Source of the DNA: a phage
NCBI GenBank assembly: GCA_033664045.1
Contig: GCA_033664045.1_3674.1
Direction: 5' to 3' (one strand)
DNA: 64,000 nucleotides
Part shown: piece by piece, positions 7,027 through 32,522 of the stretch
Layout: each line of letters starts with the position of its first letter
Position numbering within the stretch: the first letter of the stretch is position 1
The notes under the pieces: generated by a model
What the model saw: the letters and a program-made list of their open reading frames with translations, nothing else
What the model was told of the DNA's origin: nothing
The model's database searches: none
Translations under genes and position numbers: made by a program

Positions 7027-7364
7027 GTTTGTGGAGAAATATAGTTAACTACGTGTGCGGCAATCCAACTCCTGAAGAGAAGGATGTTGTGATTCACGAT
7101 TTTACTAAAAGATCTCGTGAAAAAGATCTACTGCTAACAAAGGTGACTGATAAAGATCCTGCAGTAGGGGACTGGGCAGGTTTTGCGTTTACATCGGACA
7201 AATACACCTTTAACAAAGGTGACTACCTTGTTGTAGATTTTAACGAAGACATCGAGGGTGCTGAACCTTACTATCAGACCCTTATTGTTGCAGGGTGTGT
7301 TGATCTCTCTGCAGGCATGCACAGTTTGATTCTTTTTGAGCTTGACTCTGAAGACCTTGAGTAG
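7023..7364 (+). CDS. hypothetical protein
   Basis: ORF overlapping upstream stop by 4 nt, co-directional. Confidence 0.5.
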   Translation: MSLWRNIVNYVCGNPTPEEKDVVIHDFTKRSREKDLLLTKVTDKDPAVGDWAGFAFTSDKYTFNKGDYLVVDFNEDIEGAEPYYQTLIVAGCVDLSAGMHSLILFELDSEDLE

Positions 7365-8626: not shown

Positions 8627-8654
8627 GCCCTGCCCGAAAGGGTGGGGCTTTTTG
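8627..8654 (+). terminator. rho-independent terminator
   Basis: hairpin gccctgcccgaaagggtggggc followed by TTTTTG. Confidence 0.6.
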
Positions 8655-12223: not shown

Positions 12224-15001
12224 ATGAGTATGTATAGCTTCGATTTTGAGGCCTCTGGGCTTTTGGAAGATCCAGACCTTTATTATCACTGCGGCCTGTT
12301 TAAAGCGTTGAATAAGAACCGTTTTATGCTGTTCCTTCCTCTGAATGACCGCACACACTACTCCGAGGAGGATATAGAGAAGGCTAAGAACTTTATTCTG
12401 GCAAAGAAAACTCTTTATAAGGATTTTGAAGTTCGCATAGCAGATTTTTCGGAGTTGGAAGGGTGGCTTACAGGAAATTCTGACTGGTCACCCACAGCTT
12501 TGAACTGCCACAACTGCTACAGCTACGACTTTATGCTGATGGAGAGATTGTCCGGTATTCATTTTGATATGTTCCGTGATCCTAAGTGTATGGGGACTAT
12601 CAACGACCACCAGGTTAATCTGTTTGATACATTGGCTATGAGCCGAATTTTGTGGCCTGACCGACCTTTGCCAAAAGGTTGTCCAGACGCTGTATTCAAC
12701 CCGGTTACTAAGAAAATGCAGCCTGTTGGTCCTCACGGCCTTATGGCATGGGGCTACGCTCTTGGTAACCAGAAAGTTCAAATTGATGACTGGCGCGATC
12801 TTCCGTTGTGGAAGTATGTGGATCGTGTATTCGAGGACGTTATCATCCAGGAGCTGCTCTGGAAAGAGCTGGTAGCGGAATCAAAAGGTGTATTCTACGG
12901 CAAATCTGACATGCAGAACTTTATGTACGATCCTGCCAAAGAGAAGCCGAAAGGATTCAAGAAGATCACCTGGAAGAACGCATTACGTCGAGGCATGCTG
13001 CAGCACTTCCTGATGGAGCTGCAGGCCCGTCAGGGCGTATACTTCGACATAGATGGAGCTATTGCTTTACGTGACCGTTGCGATGCGTGGATGAAAGAAA
13101 TCGCTGATCGTGTTGAACCACAACTGCCTTTAAAAGAGCTGTCAATGTCTCAGCGGCCCAAGTTCCCTGAAAAGCCGTTTAACCAAGACGGGACAATCTC
13201 CAATAATGGTTGGAAATGGTTAAAAGATAAGCTTGGCTATCCTGTAGACATGAGCGCTTTAGAGTTCAAAGCCCCGCCTAAGAGAGCATTTACCTCTACA
13301 GGAGATGTCAGCAAGATGGGGATAAAATGGTGTGAAGAGATGGGATGCAAAGACCCCGATAAGATGGCTGATTTCTTGAGAGGCTATATTAAGGGCACTT
13401 CCACACCACACCCTTTGCCTAAAGAGCTGATGGATCAGGCAATAAGTGATCTACAGCAGAAGCGAATGCCGGACTGCAAGATACCTATGAAAATCAGCAA
13501 CCAGGACGACATTAAGCGATACCTGATCAGTGCTGGCTGGCTTCCGACAATGTGGAGAACTAAGGATGTAACTAAAGACAGCAAGAAGAAAGCTTTACCT
13601 GATGCAGATGTTGATGCACGAGTATATGCATATATGGACGAGCTTTTGGAGTCAGAGTATTGTGACCTAATTATCAACTTCTGGAACAAAACTGATGCTA
13701 AGTTCCAGACAACCGTGCACAAGTTCCGAAGCTTTCCTAACTCCGAAAGGATTAAAAAGGAAGTATTCGGGAAAATACGTAGAAAAGCTAGGGCACTTAT
13801 TACTTCTCCGCAACTGAAAGATACGTTTGGACACCTATGCCCAAATCTTGAAAAATTGAACGGAGAGATGGCTAAAGATATCGTCTTGTGGTTATCATTG
13901 CGAAACCGCAGATCGGTCCTTGATCCAATCAAGGAGGATAAGGTTGATACTGGTCTTCTTAATCACCCACGCTTGAAGATTGACCATAAGCTTCCTGCTA
14001 AAAGTTCTGGATTAACAAACACTTCCCGACAGAAACACAGTATTTGTGCAAACATGCCTAAACCATCTCCTAAAGTGGTTATGGGTAAAGAGATGCGTAG
14101 TCTGTGGGGTGTTCCTCCAGGATACTTTGAGATCGGTATTGACGGGTCCAACTTAGAGCAGCTTATCGGGGCTTGGGGTGCCTTTGAGTTCGACAACGGC
14201 TTGTATTATGATGTTGTAAGTAACGGGGACGCACACCAAAACAATGCTGAGGCATATACAAAAGTAGCAGGCAGAGAGGTGTCTCGTAACGACGGTAAAC
14301 CTATCACGTATGGGGTTATGTACGGGGCACAAAAAGATAAAGTTGCAGACATGCTGGATATCTCTCCAGAGTTGGGGCAAAGGGTAATCGATGCGCTTTG
14401 GGATGCCAACCCAGGTCTTAAGGGGCGTAAAGAGGATCTGGAGAAATTCTGGGAAGCAACTGGTAAGAAGTTTATCTACTCTTTTGATGGTCATGCCATC
14501 TGGACCCGATCTAAACACTCTTTACTTAATGCATACCAACAAAATGGCGGTGCATCGTTGTGTGATTTAGTTGGGATACTCATGCACCACCAAATGGTGA
14601 GGCGTGGGTGGTACGATGAAGGTGTTCGTCGTATTATCTATTACCATGACGAATATCAGCTTCAAGTACCTGACACACCGAAGTATAAGACTGTGTACAC
14701 CTTCGACACAATTGAAGAATTGGAAGCATTTAAGGCAGAGCAGGAGGCCAAACTTCATGTGTTCGACGGTCATAAGTACAAAAAGGCACGCAAGGATGAA
14801 AACGGAAACGAAGTGGTTGACAGAGACGGAAACACGGTGTACGATCCTATCTTGAACGATGACGGAAAGCTTGAACTTATCTGGAGTCCTGTGGGCGAAA
14901 TGGTGGTACATTGCTTCTGGCAAGCTTCTAAAATGATGGGAGTCCCGTTCCAGATCACAGGTGAATACTTGTGTGGTCGTAATTGGGGTGATTGTCACTA
15001 A
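12224..15001 (+). CDS. DNA polymerase, family A, with 3'-5' exonuclease domain
   Basis: Exo I FDFEASG; motif A IDGSNLEQL; motif B RNDGKPITYGVMYGAQ; motif C YYHDEYQLQV. Confidence 0.9.
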   Translation: MSMYSFDFEASGLLEDPDLYYHCGLFKALNKNRFMLFLPLNDRTHYSEEDIEKAKNFILAKKTLYKDFEVRIADFSELEGWLTGNSDWSPTALNCHNCYSYDFMLMERLSGIHFDMFRDPKCMGTINDHQVNLFDTLAMSRILWPDRPLPKGCPDAVFNPVTKKMQPVGPHGLMAWGYALGNQKVQIDDWRDLPLWKYVDRVFEDVIIQELLWKELVAESKGVFYGKSDMQNFMYDPAKEKPKGFKKITWKNALRRGMLQHFLMELQARQGVYFDIDGAIALRDRCDAWMKEIADRVEPQLPLKELSMSQRPKFPEKPFNQDGTISNNGWKWLKDKLGYPVDMSALEFKAPPKRAFTSTGDVSKMGIKWCEEMGCKDPDKMADFLRGYIKGTSTPHPLPKELMDQAISDLQQKRMPDCKIPMKISNQDDIKRYLISAGWLPTMWRTKDVTKDSKKKALPDADVDARVYAYMDELLESEYCDLIINFWNKTDAKFQTTVHKFRSFPNSERIKKEVFGKIRRKARALITSPQLKDTFGHLCPNLEKLNGEMAKDIVLWLSLRNRRSVLDPIKEDKVDTGLLNHPRLKIDHKLPAKSSGLTNTSRQKHSICANMPKPSPKVVMGKEMRSLWGVPPGYFEIGIDGSNLEQLIGAWGAFEFDNGLYYDVVSNGDAHQNNAEAYTKVAGREVSRNDGKPITYGVMYGAQKDKVADMLDISPELGQRVIDALWDANPGLKGRKEDLEKFWEATGKKFIYSFDGHAIWTRSKHSLLNAYQQNGGASLCDLVGILMHHQMVRRGWYDEGVRRIIYYHDEYQLQVPDTPKYKTVYTFDTIEELEAFKAEQEAKLHVFDGHKYKKARKDENGNEVVDRDGNTVYDPILNDDGKLELIWSPVGEMVVHCFWQASKMMGVPFQITGEYLCGRNWGDCH

Positions 15002-15760: not shown

Positions 15761-16132
15761 ATGTTAGTAAAAGGTACTCACACAGTCAAACAGCGTATTG
15801 AAGTTGAGATTGATGATTGTGAGCTGAAGCATATTCTACGGTCATGTTCTAACGTTTTGCTCCTTAGCATTCTTCAGGAGCGAGCAGAGAACGAGTTCTT
15901 AAATGCACTGGCAGGCCGTCCTGGTGACTTCTGTGTGCGTAAGCGTGGTGACAACAAGTCATGGCTGTGGGAAATCGATGCCGACTGGGATTACCACAAA
16001 AATGAGGGTATAGATGAGCCTATTCGTGAATTGACAGACAAAGAGGTTCAGATGTACAATGAAGTTTGTCATTGGGCAACACGCCAACAAATTTACCTCG
16101 ACCCTGTGTGGCTGATTGAAAATAGTCATTGA
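15761..16132 (+). CDS. hypothetical protein
   Basis: ATG at 15761 after GGGGAGG RBS. Confidence 0.5.
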   Translation: MLVKGTHTVKQRIEVEIDDCELKHILRSCSNVLLLSILQERAENEFLNALAGRPGDFCVRKRGDNKSWLWEIDADWDYHKNEGIDEPIRELTDKEVQMYNEVCHWATRQQIYLDPVWLIENSH

Positions 16133-16208
16133 CAAGAAGTAAGATTAGATATAAGATGTTTCACACAAACAGAGCGTTGATTTTTAAATAACTAAGGAGA
16201 CTGCCAAG

Positions 16209-16463
16209 ATGAAAATTACTTTGAAGCCAGAATGCGTTGAAAATGACCGAGCTTTTAAAGATTGCACAGTCGGTGCAATTTATGAAGCAGAGTTTTGTGA
16301 GAACCCTCTGGTAAAAGCCCTTCTGGAAGAAGGGGCCCCTTTATCACAAGAAGAGATCGATGAGCTGGAAAACTCAGCACAGTGCCTTACCTTTAAAGAT
16401 GATGAAGGAGACTCTGTCTGGTGCACTGTTAATGAAGTAGTTTTTGTAAAACCTGAACATTAA
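16209..16463 (+). CDS. hypothetical protein (tandem paralog 1)
   Basis: RBS AAGGAGA; KPECVENDRAFKDCT...DDEGDSVWCT similar to next ORF. Confidence 0.55.
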   Translation: MKITLKPECVENDRAFKDCTVGAIYEAEFCENPLVKALLEEGAPLSQEEIDELENSAQCLTFKDDEGDSVWCTVNEVVFVKPEH

Positions 16464-16466
16464 TAC

Positions 16467-16495
16467 TTGACAACAGTGATAGGGCCTAATATAAT
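16467..16495 (+). promoter_or_regulatory. sigma70-like promoter, TTGACA-N17-TATAAT, -10 inside a palindrome
   Basis: cTTGACAacagtgatagggcctaaTATAATggccctatc; palindrome gatagggcc/ggccctatc flanks the -10. Confidence 0.6.
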
Positions 16496-16526
16496 GGCCC
16501 TATCAAAACGAAAGGGGACCACAGCA

Positions 16527-16799
16527 ATGACCAAACAATATCAACGAATTAAAGCCAAGGTTAAGCCAGACTATCTGGAGAAGGACTCTGCTTTTCGGGA
16601 CTGCACAGCTGACAAAGTTTACACAGGTGCCGTCCTGTTGAACGATGAACTTGAAGTAGATATTCTGGGTAAAGAGGCCACTATTAAGGACGACCAAGGC
16701 GATTATGTTTGCTGCACCACACGTGAGCTAGAAATCTTAGAATACTTCGGTGAAATCTTCACCTCTCTTGATGATTACTTAGACGACGAGGAAGCGTAA
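16527..16799 (+). CDS. hypothetical protein (tandem paralog 2)
   Basis: ATG at 16527; KPDYLEKDSAFRDCT...DDQGDYVCCT. Confidence 0.55.
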   Translation: MTKQYQRIKAKVKPDYLEKDSAFRDCTADKVYTGAVLLNDELEVDILGKEATIKDDQGDYVCCTTRELEILEYFGEIFTSLDDYLDDEEA

Positions 16800-17743: not shown

Positions 17744-17826
17744 CAAATACCTATTGTAATTTACAGAAGGGGATGCTAAAATAGTGTCTCCTTCTATGTT
17801 GTTCAAATAAAATCGGAGATTCCATA

Positions 17827-19433: not shown

Positions 19434-19462
19434 GCCCTGCCCGAAAGGGTGGGGCATTTTTG
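19434..19462 (+). terminator. rho-independent terminator (same hairpin as at 8627)
   Basis: gccctgcccgaaagggtggggc + ATTTTTG. Confidence 0.6.
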
Positions 19463-22984: not shown

Positions 22985-23440
22985 TTTCTAAAATGGATTT
23001 CCTCCTTTTGATATTTCACCGGGCTGGATATTTTAAAATTCTTAGAAAATCAGAAAATGGATCGAAAACTAAAATGGATTTTTCAGAGTAGGCGCGACAA
23101 GCTGAATAACTCATCCTATCGTTTGCACCATATTCCAGGCCACAATTACAGATTTCCAGCACATGCTCCCACCCTTCTACTAGAACTTCCTCCACTTACC
23201 CTTTACCTTCTATGGTAACAATCTAACCACTATCTTGAAGTTGCGGTGCAGCTTTCCAGGTACTCGATCTACTTTTCATTTCAGGGCTTGGATTTTCTGA
23301 AAATTTTTCTCGATAAATTTCTCAGTACTCGATCTGTTTTTCGTTTTCTGAATCGGATTTTCTGGAAATCGTTCCGGATCTCGACCTGAAATTTTTGGGG
23401 ACGAAATCGATTTTTCGTTTTCAGAAATGGATTTTTAAAA
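22985..23440. repeat. non-coding tract with short direct repeats
   Basis: AAAATGGATTT x4, TACTCGATCT x2, GGATTTTCTG x2, TTTTTCGTTTTC x2. Confidence 0.5.
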
Positions 23441-23579
23441 TTTGTATATGGAAATATTTTAGGAGGTATTATTTTATATAGAATTGTCACGGTAGGTAAT
23501 TAGCATGCTAACTAAATTTATGAAATGCGAAAAGTTCTCATTTAGAATTTTGAATGATAATCATTCTCGTTTGCAGAAT

Positions 23580-23605
23580 AACGGGCACCCCCGGTGATTG
23601 TCTCC
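23580..23605. repeat. 26-bp repeat, left arm of perfect inverted repeat
   Basis: aacgggcacccccggtgattgtctcc; exact reverse complement at 32392-32417. Confidence 0.6.
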
Positions 23606-23712
23606 CGGCCCCTACTGCCCCGGCTTGTTATTATAGTAACACACAGGACAAAGAAAGCAAGAAGTTTTTTGCATAAATTTTTAGACGATAATGATAATCG
23701 TTCTCATTTTAT

Positions 23713-24885: not shown

Positions 24886-24967
24886 AAATTGTTGACACGC
24901 TGCAAAATTCAAGTAAACTGGGCACAAAAGGCGGGAATGTTTCCCGCCAACATAAAGGAAAAAGATC

Positions 24968-25372
24968 ATGAATAAGAACGTACGCCGCATCATGAACGAA
25001 CTGGCAAACGATGAAAAAATTATTGATATGCATTTGGTCAACATTTGCCGCCGTTGTGTAACATACAACAACCGCGCCGCAAAAGCGCGTGAGATGAACG
25101 CAAAAGGCACCTTAAAGCCATTCCAGGTGGTGGTAAAGGCCATTAAAGATGTAACTAATACGGCAAACCAGGTACAGGGGAACACCAACGAGAGTACCAA
25201 TATTGATCCGTCTTACGTAATGAAACGGATCCGGACTTGCAAGAATAAAGAGCAGGTGTATAACGTCATAGATTGGCTGGACTCCCTGGGCGATGTGGTT
25301 TACAATAGGTTTTCTGCAGCTATTGAGATTCAGTTAGACAGGTTGGACGGGAAAGTACTAAAAACTTACTGA
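24968..25372 (+). CDS. hypothetical protein
   Basis: promoter TTGACA-N16-TAAACT near 24893; leader hairpin ggcgggaatgtttcccgcc; RBS AAAGGAA. Confidence 0.55.
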   Translation: MNKNVRRIMNELANDEKIIDMHLVNICRRCVTYNNRAAKAREMNAKGTLKPFQVVVKAIKDVTNTANQVQGNTNESTNIDPSYVMKRIRTCKNKEQVYNVIDWLDSLGDVVYNRFSAAIEIQLDRLDGKVLKTY

Positions 25373-25373
25373 G

Positions 25374-25420
25374 TTTATTTTTAGATGGCCTTGACTTCAG
25401 GGCCATCAATAAAGTAAACT
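25374..25420 (+). repeat. 47-nt repeated hairpin element, copy 1
   Basis: tttatttttagatggccTTGACTtcagggccatcaataaagtaaact; stem tggcc/ggcca with TTGACT in loop. Confidence 0.5.
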
Positions 25421-25452
25421 AGTCTCAACTAAGCGAAAAAGGGGGCTTTAAG

Positions 25453-25572: not shown

Positions 25573-25651
25573 TTGACAAGCTAACCCAAATCGGTATACT
25601 TAAACACGTAAACGGGAAAACTTCCCAGAACACACAAAAGGAGAAAACACC

Positions 25652-25993
25652 ATGACTACTATGACCGCCACAGAAAAAGCTATGCAGATCGCCGCGCTGA
25701 AAAAACAGATCGCAGACCTTGAGAACAAGATCGATAACTTTGAAATCGACGAGGACAAGTACGACGAAAACTATGACGAATGGTTAGACGAGATCTACGG
25801 CGAAATTATGATCGGAAACATTTCTTTTCTTCCGTCGCGTATCCTCAAGGAGCTGGATCCTATCGCTTACCGCTGCGGATTTAGCGACTACATCGACAGC
25901 TTGGATATTGAGGACGATGAAGAGTACCAAGAATTACAGACAGAGCTCGAAGAAGTGAAAGAAGAGCTTGCAGAACTGGAAGAAAACGAGTAA
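25652..25993 (+). CDS. hypothetical highly acidic protein
   Basis: promoter TTGACA-N16-TATACT; RBS AAGGAGA; roughly 30 percent D+E with coiled-coil-like C-terminus. Confidence 0.55.
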   Translation: MTTMTATEKAMQIAALKKQIADLENKIDNFEIDEDKYDENYDEWLDEIYGEIMIGNISFLPSRILKELDPIAYRCGFSDYIDSLDIEDDEEYQELQTELEEVKEELAELEENE

Positions 25994-25995
25994 AA

Positions 25996-26042
25996 TTTAT
26001 TTTTAGATGGCCTTGACTCCAGGGCCATCAATAAAGTAAACT
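25996..26042 (+). repeat. 47-nt repeated hairpin element, copy 2
   Basis: tttatttttagatggccTTGACTccagggccatcaataaagtaaact. Confidence 0.5.
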
Positions 26043-26083
26043 TTATACTGTTAACACTGAACTAATGCATAGGAGTTAAAACC

Positions 26084-26329
26084 ATGGCAGCACTAATCAC
26101 CAAATATTATGCCCCTACCAACACCAAAAGCGCCCGTATCATGGTAAAAGGCTTCGGACGTAAAAAGGTTTACACCTGGGATTATGCCTTAGACACAGAA
26201 GACAACTACACCAACGCGATGACCGATTTTATTAATGATCTGAACACGCGGATCTTGACAAATTATCAAATTACCGATATTGCCTATATAGGGGAAGGCG
26301 GGATCTGTTTTGTCGGTATCGTCAAATAG
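26084..26329 (+). CDS. hypothetical protein
   Basis: RBS AGGAG. Confidence 0.55.
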   Translation: MAALITKYYAPTNTKSARIMVKGFGRKKVYTWDYALDTEDNYTNAMTDFINDLNTRILTNYQITDIAYIGEGGICFVGIVK

Positions 26330-26406
26330 GCTGTTTTTTCGGTGGTCCTGGTAGCAGGGCCATCTATAAAGATAGTTTATCAACACAATGAAAGGAGAAA
26401 GTACAC

Positions 26407-26984: not shown

Positions 26985-27166
26985 CTATCCTACGAATAGC
27001 GCCCCTGGTTGGCCCTGTAAGCGCCAAAAAGGCCCCCACCTATGCAATCGCCCCCCTTTAACCTGAAAACATCGCCCAGGGCCGTTTTATGGCGTTAAAA
27101 ATATCATTGACATCGTCAACAGGTTAGCTATACTAACCACATCAAAGAGAGAAAGGAGTAAACGCC

Positions 27167-27427
27167 ATGCGTAAATTAAAAAATTTTGATAAAGTTGATG
27201 TTATCCTGAATAATTTTTACTACTGCAACAATAAGGCTATTTGGTGGCGTGATAGTTCCACCGATAAAGTCAAGGCGCGCTTTCTTCAGGGGCACTGGCA
27301 AGGCCGCCCAGTGATTAAAATCATGGGGCAATTGGTAGCGTTTAAAAATTGCCGCCGTGTTGATGACGTTGAGGAGATTTTAAACATTTTGCGCCACAAT
27401 AATTTAAAAAATAGTGTTGACAAGTAA
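27167..27427 (+). CDS. hypothetical protein
   Basis: promoter TTGACA-N16-TATACT near 27104; RBS AAAGGAG. Confidence 0.55.
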   Translation: MRKLKNFDKVDVILNNFYYCNNKAIWWRDSSTDKVKARFLQGHWQGRPVIKIMGQLVAFKNCRRVDDVEEILNILRHNNLKNSVDK

Positions 27428-27444
27428 ATCTCAATAAGTATAAT
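27417..27444 (+). promoter_or_regulatory. sigma70-like promoter TTGACA-N16-TATAAT followed by leader hairpin
   Basis: gTTGACAagtaaatctcaataagTATAATtaaacacacaGGCGGGaaaacttCCCGCC. Confidence 0.55.
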
Positions 27445-27501
27445 TAAACACACAGGCGGGAAAACTTCCCGCCACTAACAAAGAAAACAGGAGAAAATAT
27501 C

Positions 27502-29513: not shown

Positions 29514-29714
29514 ATGAGCAACAATATCCGCGTTATTAACTTCAAAAAAGAAGAAAAAATTGCTGTGCTGGTTGATGGTCAAGAAATCTTCAAGGGCGAC
29601 TATGAAGATCATCAAACGGCGATTAGTATCACTCGCGTGATCGGTTACCATAATTTCTACCCCCAAGGCGCTGAGGCAGCAGTTAAACGAATCAAAGAGA
29701 TTGTAGGCCTGTAA
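29514..29714 (+). CDS. hypothetical protein
   Basis: promoter TTGCAA-N17-ATAATA; leader hairpin ggggagacactcccc; RBS AAAGGAGA. Confidence 0.5.
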   Translation: MSNNIRVINFKKEEKIAVLVDGQEIFKGDYEDHQTAISITRVIGYHNFYPQGAEAAVKRIKEIVGL

Positions 29715-29716
29715 AA

Positions 29717-29762
29717 TTTATTTTTAGATGGCCTTTACTTCAGGGCCATCAATAAAGTAAAT
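29717..29762 (+). repeat. 47-nt repeated hairpin element, copy 3
   Basis: tttatttttagatggcctttacttcagggccatcaataaagtaaat. Confidence 0.5.
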
Positions 29763-29805
29763 TTAAACCCTGTTAAAATAATCAGTGCAAAAAGGAGTAA
29801 TGATC

Positions 29806-30679: not shown

Positions 30680-30913
30680 ATGATGGAACAAATTAAACGC
30701 GCTGAGGCTATTAATGGCAATGTGATCTATTTTGTCAGCAAAAACGAAAAAGGCGTACCATATGCGGCGGTAATAGTACAGCCTGACGGAGATTATTGGT
30801 TTACTGTATACGGATCTTATTCTTTTGGGCGTCCAGTGCATGATAAAATTTTGAAAGTAGCGAACCCCACCGGGAAGAATATCACGGCAGAAAAATTTTT
30901 TGAAAAGTGTTGA
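30680..30913 (+). CDS. hypothetical protein
   Basis: RBS AAAGAGAGG. Confidence 0.5.
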   Translation: MMEQIKRAEAINGNVIYFVSKNEKGVPYAAVIVQPDGDYWFTVYGSYSFGRPVHDKILKVANPTGKNITAEKFFEKC

Positions 30914-30988
30914 CATGACCATATAAAACTGTAGTATATAAATCAAAGGGGGCAACAAGCCCCACCAACCACAAAGAGGATAAAAATC

Positions 30989-32417: not shown

Positions 32418-32522
32418 ATATAAAAAACTATAAAAACCGTTGACATCTGCCGGGTGGTGGGGTAGCATTTACCTTGAAGGGGCAAAAGTGCCCACACAAC
32501 AACCAGAAGAGAGGAAAACACT

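What the first reader, a model, noticed from the sequence alone, without database searches (positions are those of the whole stretch)
16467..16504. Consensus promoter with its -10 hexamer inside a perfect palindrome
TTGACA-N17-TATAAT is a perfect sigma70 consensus, and the -10 lies in the loop of the 9-bp palindrome gatagggcc / ggccctatc. This could be an operator for a dimeric repressor overlapping the -10, or a structure that modulates open-complex formation. It sits between the two tandem paralogs.
Basis: seen in the sequence. Interest (0 to 1): 0.45.

Follow-up and report, generated by a model that had tools for sequence, protein, structure and literature searches.

The report
Phage early promoter inside a stem-loop
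This is a real, conserved early promoter of an rV5-like E. coli phage whose -10 box sits in the loop of a hairpin; the design is already known from T4-type phages (PeSL cassettes), where it couples a promoter to a stem-loop that stops upstream transcripts, and here it appears in a different phage group.

Summary
TTGACA (16467-72), a 17-nt spacer and TATAAT (16490-95) lie inside a perfect 10-bp inverted repeat (16477-86 / 16496-505). This is the longest perfect hairpin in the window.

The window is an rV5-like phage (Vequintavirus). All 30 relatives examined keep the -35 box, the spacing, a TATAAT or TACAAT -10 box and the pairing potential. Two base pairs changed on both sides.

The architecture matches the promoter-early stem-loop (PeSL) cassettes of T4-type phages. 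RB49 cassettes also hold the -10 in a hairpin loop and share the leader ATCAAAACGAAA at the same spacing. The same arms, GATAGGRCY / RGYCCTATC, recur in early promoters of Acinetobacter phage Acj61, E. coli Mosigvirus phages and other large IMG/VR phage contigs. There they sit next to unrelated genes, and spacer and post-10 segments co-vary.

The dyad is single-copy in the Vequintavirus genome. Its arms vary asymmetrically, so a dimeric-repressor operator is unlikely.

Best reading: a sigma70 early promoter for the downstream paralog. Its hairpin acts in RNA read through from upstream, as an attenuator or 3' end, and the cassette is a recombination module. Promoter and hairpin activity are inferred, not measured. 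It is a new member of a known kind, of modest interest.

The parts
16129..16157 (+). Upstream sigma70-like promoter (TTGACA-N17-TAAGAT) of the first paralog. It is the likely source of transcripts that read into the hairpin.
   Evidence: 10 of 12 matches. Annotated as 'Sigma70-type promoter; P220' in the rV5 record.
16209..16463 (+). Upstream paralog (84 aa, rV5 ORF220 equivalent, function unknown). Its TAA stop at 16461-16463 lies 3 nt before the -35 box.
   Evidence: phrog_12544, unknown function.
16467..16472 (+). -35 hexamer TTGACA
   Evidence: Invariant in 21 distinct haplotypes.
16477..16486 (+). Left arm of the dyad, TGATAGGGCC, inside the promoter spacer.
   Evidence: Variants GATAGGACC, GATGGGGCC and others occur in relatives.
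16490..16495 (+). -10 hexamer TATAAT, lying wholly within the 9-nt loop 16487-16495.
   Evidence: It is TATAAT or TACAAT in all relatives.
16496..16505 (+). Right arm of the dyad, GGCCCTATCA. It covers the discriminator region and the first transcribed bases.
   Evidence: The same sequence class RGYCCTATC follows the -10 box in many T4-type early promoters.
16502..16513 (+). Predicted transcription start (A16502, 7 nt after the -10 box) and leader motif ATCAAAACGAAA.
   Evidence: Inferred from spacing. The identical 12-mer lies at the identical distance from the -10 box in an RB49 cassette (L244 7158-7181). It is unique in the window.
16513..16518 (+). Shine-Dalgarno-like AGGGGA, 8 nt before the start codon.
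   Evidence: An RBS is annotated here in phage Murica.
16527..16799 (+). Downstream paralog (90 aa, rV5 ORF219 equivalent, function unknown). Its true start is ATG 16527, not the ATG at 16494 inside the -10 box.
   Evidence: Phage CM1 has a stop codon and phage Alma a 1-nt deletion between 16494 and 16527. phrog_11936.
17765..17795 (+). Terminator-like hairpin, the probable end of the transcription unit started at this promoter.
   Evidence: A 'putative transcriptional terminator' is annotated at the equivalent place in HdK5.

Best explanation
The element is a composite 'promoter-early stem-loop' (PeSL-type) cassette that fills the 63-nt gap between two small genes of unknown function.

1. On DNA, host sigma70 RNA polymerase uses TTGACA-N17-TATAAT. 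It starts transcription at about A16502 and produces a short leader (AUCAAAACGAAAGGGGA...) for the downstream paralog and the genes after it.
2. The start lies inside the right arm, so the hairpin cannot form in this promoter's own transcript. It forms only in RNA that arrives from upstream promoters such as the one at 16129. There a 10-bp stem of about -17 to -20 kcal/mol sits 14 nt after the stop codon of the upstream gene. It acts as an attenuator or terminator and as a protected 3' end, which uncouples neighbouring gene cassettes.
3. The conserved cassette also provides homology for recombination that shuffles the flanking small genes.

Shown here: the anatomy, conservation, sequence similarity to T4-type cassettes, co-variation of the arms in T4-type promoters, and mosaicism around the cassette.

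Inferred: promoter activity, start site, RNA-level role of the hairpin, and the recombination role.
For: Context: the window is a Vequintavirus, 98% identical to phages nimi, HdK5 and JES2013.

Conservation in 30 relatives:
- The -35 box, the 17-nt spacing, the -10 box (TATAAT or TACAAT), the SD and the ATG are conserved.
- 90% of stem cells pair. G:C changed to A:U in the rV5/HdK5 group, and A:U changed to G:C in CM1.
- CM1 has a different right flank yet keeps 6 + 3 pairs.

Published definition of PeSLs (PMC2839356 sections 14; PMC4122927):
- One RB49 stem-loop reduced downstream lacZ as strongly as rrnB T1. One whole RB49 cassette, the only one recovered without promoter mutations, gave about 13,000 Miller units.

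Direct comparison with RB49:
- RB49 intergenic cassettes at L244 7803-7874, 11032-11096, 11949-12006 and 13184-13239 hold the -10 box in a hairpin loop.
- The cassette at L244 7126-7206 has TATACT-N6-ATCAAAACGAAA, the same 12-mer and spacing as the window.

The same arms elsewhere:
- GATAGGRCY...RGYCCTATC(AA) flanks the -10 box in Mosigvirus SA79RD, where it is annotated as a rho-independent terminator.
- It occurs 7 times in Acinetobacter phage Acj61 and in several other large IMG/VR phage contigs that have T4-style GTTTAC -35 boxes.
- The flanking proteins are unrelated to those of the window.

Co-variation: among 52 distinct T4-type promoters, each spacer segment pairs with its own post-10 segment better than with those of other promoters. 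The mean is 6.33 against 5.38 +/- 0.13 (0 of 2000 permutations). The result also holds for the 35 promoters with non-consensus right arms (0 of 5000).

Mosaicism around the cassette (identity to the window, left gene / cassette / right gene):
- HdK5: 99 / 92 / 98%.
- Murica: 98.8 / 96.8 / 86.8%.
- CM1: 96 / 75 / 98.5%.
Against: - There are no transcript data for any rV5-like phage. Promoter use, start site and hairpin function are all inferred.
- The hairpin is followed by AAAACGAAAGG, not a U-tract, so it is not a canonical intrinsic terminator (absent from the terminator list).
- Within Vequintavirus the co-variation statistics are weak: score 0.184 against 0.160, with 38 of 500 shuffles as high, and the percentage of paired cells is no better than shuffled.
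- One-sided changes split about 5-6 G:U-type to 3 A:C-type events, which is compatible with neutral transitions.
- The preference for G:U on the + strand in T4-type copies is mild, 12 against 7.
- This dyad type is single-copy in the Vequintavirus genome, whereas classical PeSLs are multi-copy.
- The profile-HMM E-value of 6e-6 is inflated. The T4-type copies were collected with a pattern derived from the window. The unbiased blastn hits were only E of about 2.
Confidence: 0.6

Rival explanations
1. Operator: a dimeric phage or host repressor binds the two half-sites on duplex DNA and blocks the -10 box. This would switch off the downstream paralog after the early phase.
For: - The element is a perfect palindrome centred on the -10 box.
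- The arm sequence GATAGGRC / GYCCTATC is conserved across very different phages. That could reflect sequence-specific recognition.
Against: - There is only one copy in the 137-kb genome.
- 11 of 15 Vequintavirus haplotypes are asymmetric, including the commonest, GATGGGGCC / GGCCCTATC.
- Other T4-type promoters carry different but mutually complementary arms, for example CATGGAGCT / GGCTCCATC and TATGAGAGT / AGTCTCATA.
- Many T4-type promoters have the right arm without any matching left arm.
- The half-site centres are 19 bp apart, which is not a helical repeat.
Confidence: 0.1
2. Inherited baggage: the cassette is a T4-type early promoter imported by recombination. The dyad came with it and has no function of its own in the rV5-like phage. 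It persists because spacer and discriminator positions tolerate change.
For: - The dyad is single-copy in the genome.
- The arms are the most variable part of the region, with 8-12 variable columns per 21 nt against 2-9 in the flanks.
- The co-variation signal within the genus is not significant.
Against: - Every one of 30 relatives still pairs at 7 or more of the 9 positions, counting G:U.
- Two pairs changed on both sides.
- CM1 rebuilt a stem despite a replaced right flank.
- Selection for pairing is clear in the T4-type copies.
Confidence: 0.2
3. DNA-level switch: negative supercoiling extrudes a cruciform that hides the -10 box, or the GC-rich arms hinder melting. Either would make promoter strength depend on DNA topology.
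For: The single-stranded DNA hairpin is stable for its size: -10.3 kcal/mol, z = -6.8. The arms abut the region melted by the polymerase.
Against: - From general knowledge, a 10-bp stem with a 9-nt loop is a poor candidate for cruciform extrusion.
- The frequent G:T arms in relatives would weaken a DNA cruciform further.
- No data bear on topology.
Confidence: 0.05

Closest known systems
PeSL (promoter-early stem-loop) cassettes of T4-type phages RB49/phi1, PST/T4 and nt-1/KVP40 (Arbiol et al. 2010, PMC2839356; Comeau et al. 2014, PMC4122927)
   Same: - A near-perfect TTGACA-N17-TATAAT promoter.
- The stop codon of the upstream gene lies just 5' of the -35 box.
- A G-run/C-run stem-loop overlaps the -10 box.
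- SD plus ATG lie at the 3' end.
- The cassette sits between small genes of unknown function, in a mosaic region.
- The leader 12-mer ATCAAAACGAAA is shared with an RB49 cassette at the same spacing.
   Different: - The host genome is a Vequintavirus, not a T4-type phage.
- This dyad type is single-copy in the genome.
- Terminator activity, promoter strength and mini-circle formation are untested here.
- No paper in the searchable library links PeSLs to rV5-like phages.
Early promoters of T4-type phages of Acinetobacter (Acj61 confirmed; a 167,922-bp contig that is Kimel by matching length only) and of E. coli Mosigvirus phages
   Same: - The same arms, GATAGGRCY ... RGYCCTATC, lie in the same register around the -10 box.
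- The start region is the same, ATCAA.
- The cassette begins at the stop codon of the upstream gene.
   Different: - Those promoters have a T4-style -35 box (GTTTAC/TATACA) and a 10-nt loop.
- They are multi-copy in their genomes.
- The window has TTGACA, a 9-nt loop and C:G instead of U:A/U:G at the top of the stem.
Repressor operators that overlap the -10 box (classical dimeric repressors on palindromic sites)
   Same: A palindrome centred on the -10 hexamer.
   Different: - The arm sequence is not fixed.
- One-sided G:T changes are common.
- There is one site per genome.
- The arms co-vary among paralogous promoters.
Intrinsic (rho-independent) terminators
   Same: A GC-rich hairpin directly after a stop codon. 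The Mosigvirus copy is annotated as a terminator by WebGeSTer.
   Different: No U-tract follows the stem on either strand.

Membership tests
PeSL cassette | Near-consensus sigma70 promoter (TTGACA-N17-TATAAT in the RB49/phi1 type) | tested here: met
   12 of 12 matches with a 17-nt spacer. Conserved in relatives.
PeSL cassette | The cassette starts at the stop codon of the upstream gene, in an AT-rich stretch 5' of the -35 box. | tested here: met
   TAA at 16461-16463, 3 nt before the -35 box. 12 of 17 bases in 16450-16466 are A or T.
PeSL cassette | Stable stem-loop with a G-run and a C-run, placed inside the promoter. [quoted passage not shown] | tested here: met
   10-bp stem ..GGGCC / GGCCC.. 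with the -10 box in the loop. -19.6 kcal/mol, z = -3.9.
PeSL cassette | Shine-Dalgarno sequence and start codon of the next gene at the 3' end. | tested here: met
   AGGGGA at 16513-16518 and ATG at 16527. The start is fixed by the CM1 stop codon and the Alma frameshift.
PeSL cassette | Lies between small orphan genes in a plastic, mosaic region. | tested here: met
   The flanking genes have unknown function. Left and right identities are incongruent among relatives.
PeSL cassette | Repeated many times in the same genome. | tested here: inconclusive
   This dyad type occurs once in the window and not at all in the rest of a 98%-identical genome. Other promoter plus stem-loop composites are present: four copies of a stem-loop around a -35-like box, hairpins just after the -10 box, and a second -10-overlapping stem at 27107.
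PeSL cassette | The stem-loop attenuates or terminates transcription from upstream, and the promoter is strong in vivo. | not testable with these tools
   Shown only for RB49 cassettes in PMC2839356.
PeSL cassette | Mediates recombination between cassettes (indels, mini-circles). | tested here: inconclusive
   Mosaic patterns break at or near the cassette, and the HdK5 cassette was swapped between near-identical flanks. No breakpoint mapping or mini-circle test was done.
PeSL cassette | Described so far in T4-type myoviruses. | tested here: not met
   The window is a Vequintavirus. This is a host-range limit of the descriptions, not a mechanistic criterion.
Repressor operator | The half-site sequence is conserved and symmetric among close relatives. 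| tested here: not met
   7 of the 9 pairs vary and 11 of 15 haplotypes are asymmetric.
Repressor operator | Further copies of the site at other regulated promoters. | tested here: not met
Repressor operator | A cognate DNA-binding protein that binds the site. | not testable with these tools
   Needs a gel shift or footprint. A 'putative transcriptional regulator' is annotated in phage nimi but was not examined.
Intrinsic terminator | GC-rich hairpin followed directly by a U-tract. | tested here: not met
   The stem is followed by AAAACGAAAGG on the + strand and by CTGTTGTCAAG on the - strand. It is not listed.

The most novel reading that the evidence does not exclude
The GATAGG...CCTATC dyad with the -10 box in its loop may be a portable promoter module that moves between unrelated phage families: T4-type Straboviridae of Acinetobacter and E. 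coli, and Vequintavirinae. The dyad itself may be the recognition or crossover point for that movement, or a binding site for a shared factor, rather than just a terminator hairpin.
Probability: 0.15. Interest if true: 0.6.

Novelty: new member of a known kind. Interest (0 to 1): 0.35.

Why it matters
- It adds an unannotated early promoter to rV5-like phages, which are used for E. coli O157 biocontrol.
- It corrects the start codon of the downstream gene in many database records.
- It extends the promoter plus stem-loop cassette idea beyond T4-type phages. Nearly the same 35-nt core sits next to unrelated genes in phages of different families and hosts. This supports the view that such cassettes are units of horizontal exchange for small early genes.
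- It gives a compact natural part, a strong promoter combined with an upstream insulator, that could be tested for synthetic biology.

Tried and rejected
- Rfam: no family matches the region.
- tblastn with the downstream paralog: homologs only within Vequintavirus, so no distant orthologous intergenic regions were available.
- Protein-based locus search in IMG/VR: only 2 loci.
- A -35-anchored DNA pattern in IMG/VR and in metagenomes: about 200 hits, nearly all unrelated promoters.
- Half-site search in the window: no enrichment.
- Co-variation test on the Vequintavirus alignment: weak. The divergence is too shallow.
- Strand test by G:U against A:C counts: only a mild + strand bias.
- My first intergenic hairpin scan used even window lengths only and missed the 29-nt hairpin. 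It was redone.
- Profile HMM of T4-type copies against the window: significant but partly circular, so it is not used as the main evidence.
- ATG 16494 inside the -10 box as the gene start: rejected because of the CM1 stop codon and the Alma frameshift.
- RNase III site: rejected from general knowledge, because 10 bp is too short.
- Minus-strand terminator: rejected, with no U-tract and no minus-strand genes.
- Supplementary files of the PeSL paper are not held, so I could not check whether the tested RB49 stem-loop has a U-tract.
- No transcriptome paper for a Vequintavirus was found.

Full report
**Observation.** The sequence is as described. TTGACA lies at 16467-16472, followed by a 17-nt spacer and TATAAT at 16490-16495. 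The arms GATAGGGCC (16478-16486) and GGCCCTATC (16496-16504) are perfectly complementary. With the flanking T and A the repeat is 10 bp, at 16477-16486 and 16496-16505. The 9-nt loop TAATATAAT contains the whole -10 hexamer.

The feature is more than chance. Exact consensus promoters occur 4 times in the window against 0.07 expected. This is the only perfect hairpin of 10 bp or more with a short loop in 64 kb. By a simple uniform-base estimate of mine, a perfect 9-bp stem enclosing one of four given hexamers has a probability of about 7e-4. The 63-nt intergenic RNA folds at -19.6 kcal/mol with z = -3.9. The same hairpin as single-stranded DNA gives -10.3 kcal/mol.

**Context.** The window is an rV5-like phage of the genus Vequintavirus, 98% identical to phages nimi, HdK5 and JES2013. 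The element fills the gap between two small + strand genes of unknown function. These are true paralogs (E = 2e-11; PHROG families of unknown function; no Pfam family above its cut-off).

Many database records start the downstream gene at the ATG at 16494 inside the -10 box, or at an ATG created by a mutation in the left arm. Phage CM1 has a stop codon between 16494 and 16527, and phage Alma has a 1-nt deletion there. The real start is therefore ATG 16527, preceded by AGGGGA. In the rV5 reference record the promoter upstream of the first paralog is annotated (P220, window 16129), but this one is not. The rV5 genome paper does not mention stem-loops in promoters.

**Conservation within the genus.** I collected the region from 27 phage records and several metagenome or IMG/VR contigs, which gave 21 distinct haplotypes.
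- The -35 hexamer and the spacer length are invariant.
- The -10 box is TATAAT or TACAAT.
- The SD and the ATG are conserved.
- The arms vary at 7 of the 9 pairs, yet 90% of stem cells still pair.
- G:C became A:U in the rV5, HdK5, EdH4, A135 and Wec189 group. A:U became G:C in CM1, through the G:U state seen in the commonest haplotype.
- CM1 has a different right flank and still forms 6 + 3 pairs.

The statistics are weak at this shallow divergence. The co-variation score is 0.184 against 0.160, with 38 of 500 shuffles as high. One-sided changes split about 5-6 G:U-type to 3 A:C-type events. On this evidence alone, selection for pairing would be only suggestive.

**Identification with a known kind.** Arbiol et al. 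2010 (PMC2839356) and Comeau et al. 2014 (PMC4122927) describe PeSLs in T4-type phages. These are small intergenic cassettes that begin at the stop codon of the upstream gene in an AT-rich stretch. In RB49/phi1 they contain a near-perfect TTGACA-N17-TATAAT promoter. [quoted passage not shown] They flank orphan genes in plastic regions. One RB49 stem-loop reduced downstream lacZ as strongly as rrnB T1. One whole RB49 cassette, the only one recovered without promoter mutations, gave about 13,000 Miller units.

I fetched 18 kb of RB49 through a shared early gene and folded its intergenic regions. Cassettes at L244 7803-7874, 11032-11096, 11949-12006 and 13184-13239 have the -10 box in a hairpin loop, exactly like the window. 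The cassette at 7126-7206 has TATACT-N6-ATCAAAACGAAA. That is the same 12-mer at the same distance from the -10 box as window 16502-16513. The 12-mer is unique in the window.

**The same arms in other phage families.** An unbiased blastn of the 72-nt cassette gave weak hits (E about 2, 76% over 57 nt) in intergenic DNA of many T4-type phages. In Mosigvirus SA79RD the sequence reads TTTACA-acaaGATAGGGCTatgtTATAGTAGTCCTATCaaaacaaatggag..ATG. The stem is annotated there as a rho-independent terminator.

A pattern for the core found it in IMG/VR at 15 places in 7 contigs. My estimate of the chance expectation is well below 1. Seven of the places are in Acinetobacter phage Acj61. In every case the cassette starts at the stop codon of the upstream gene and ends at an SD and ATG. 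The flanking proteins are unrelated to those of the window. So nearly the same 35-nt core lies next to different genes in phages of different families and hosts.

A profile built from the T4-type copies finds only this site in the window (E = 6e-6). That value is inflated, because the copies were collected with a pattern derived from the window.

**Structure or sequence.** I listed 52 distinct T4-style promoters in the fetched T4-type loci without regard to pairing.
- The right-arm sequence RGYCYTATCAA is part of the general promoter consensus. It occurs even where no left arm matches.
- About 40% of the promoters have a complementary left arm.
- Several have different but mutually complementary arms: CATGGAGCT / GGCTCCATC, AATAAGGTA / TGCCTTATC, TATGAGAGT / AGTCTCATA.

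Each promoter's spacer pairs with its own post-10 segment better than with those of other promoters. The mean is 6.33 against 5.38 +/- 0.13 (0 of 2000 permutations). The result also holds for the 35 promoters with non-consensus right arms (0 of 5000). Some promoters in the set are orthologs from related phages, which inflates this somewhat. Even so, pairing itself is selected. That argues for a hairpin and against a fixed protein site. G:U pairs on the + strand outnumber A:C only mildly, 12 to 7, so the acting strand is not settled.

**Against an operator.** The dyad is unique in the window. It is absent from the remaining 74 kb of the 98%-identical phage nimi genome. Most haplotypes are asymmetric, and the half-site centres are 19 bp apart.

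**Against a canonical terminator.** No U-tract follows the stem on either strand.

**Recombination.** Identity to the window on the left gene, the cassette and the right gene is incongruent among relatives:

| Phage | Left gene | Cassette | Right gene |
|---|---|---|---|
| HdK5 | 99% | 92% | 98% |
| Murica | 98.8% | 96.8% | 86.8% |
| CM1 | 96% | 75% | 98.5% |
| naam | 98.8% | 98.4% | 87.2% |

The cassette has the highest density of variable sites in the region. This fits the published role of such cassettes as crossover points, but I did not map breakpoints.

**Other cassettes in the window.** The early region also holds other promoter plus stem-loop composites:
- A 4-copy repeat with a stem-loop around a -35-like TTGACT.
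- Several promoters followed at once by GC hairpins.
- A second, weaker stem that overlaps a -10 box at 27107-27146, with an ATCAAAG start region.

**Conclusion.** It is best explained as a PeSL-type early promoter and stem-loop cassette. The promoter serves the downstream paralog. The hairpin cannot be in that promoter's own RNA, because the predicted start (A16502) lies in the right arm. It therefore acts on transcripts coming from upstream, as an attenuator or a protected 3' end. The cassette also serves as a recombination module. Promoter activity, start site and hairpin function are inferred from comparison and from experiments on RB49 cassettes, not measured here. No paper in the searchable library reports such cassettes in rV5-like phages. 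This is therefore a new member of a known kind, of modest interest.

Noticed in passing
window 25368-25421, 25990-26043, 26325-26378, 29711-29764: A four-copy 54-nt intergenic repeat. It has a T-rich run, then the hairpin GATGGCCTTG-ACTT-CAGGGCCATC, which encloses a -35-like TTGACT, with TAAACT 18 nt later. The copy at 26325 has lost the TTGACT but keeps a 10-bp stem with two G:U pairs. This looks like a second class of promoter plus stem-loop cassette.
   Followed up: partly
window 24892-24948, 25573-25631, 27417-27473, 30910-30963, 32440-32484: Sigma70-like promoters followed within about 10 nt of the -10 box by GC-rich hairpins such as GGCGGGAAAACTTCCCGCC. These would sit at the 5' end of the transcripts. 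Some are related to each other (repeat families D6 and D8).
   Followed up: partly
window 27107-27167: A second promoter whose -10 box is overlapped by a stem-loop: TTGACA-N16-TATACT with stem GGTTAG / CTAACC. It is followed by ACATCAAAG, which resembles RB49 cassette start regions.
   Followed up: partly
window 23250-23435 (within the gene-free gap 23219-23690): Three tandem, diverged copies of a unit of about 65 nt, in a 472-nt stretch without ORFs. This may correspond to the 'non-coding' box on the rV5 genome map. It could be an origin-like or regulatory repeat array.
   Followed up: no
window 8627-8653 and 19434-19460: Two nearly identical (96%) terminator hairpins, GCCCTGCCCGAAAGGGTGGGGC followed by a T-run, lying 10.8 kb apart.
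   Followed up: no
window 16494 / 16527 and loci L001, L002, L014, L019: Database records disagree on the start of the downstream paralog. Choices are the ATG inside the -10 box, an ATG created in the left arm, or ATG 16527. The CM1 stop codon and the Alma frameshift support 16527.
   Followed up: yes
L017 (phage CM1) and L007 (241Ecol014PP) versus window 16129-16157: In these two phages the spacer of this promoter begins AGAAAGAT. In CM1 the loop reads AGATATAAT. Both resemble the neighbouring upstream promoter (TTGACAAGAAGTAAGATTAGATATAAGAT), as if adjacent cassettes had recombined.
   Followed up: no
window 12224-15001 versus L002 1899-4226: The DNA polymerase ORF is 925 aa in the window. 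The rV5 record annotates a 775-aa polymerase followed by several small ORFs. This is either a real difference or an annotation or sequencing difference.
   Followed up: no
phage records MG0656xx: Sixteen records named 'Campylobacter phage' (the one opened, A135, is marked UNVERIFIED) match at 90% or more, with listed examples 97-98% identical to E. coli Vequintavirus phages over this region. The host labels look doubtful.
   Followed up: no
L247 641-1451 (IMG/VR contig): In this contig, which has a T4-style promoter and was not otherwise identified, the same dyad cassette again lies between two tandem paralogous small genes (128 and 120 aa). These genes are unrelated to the paralogs of the window.
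   Followed up: partly
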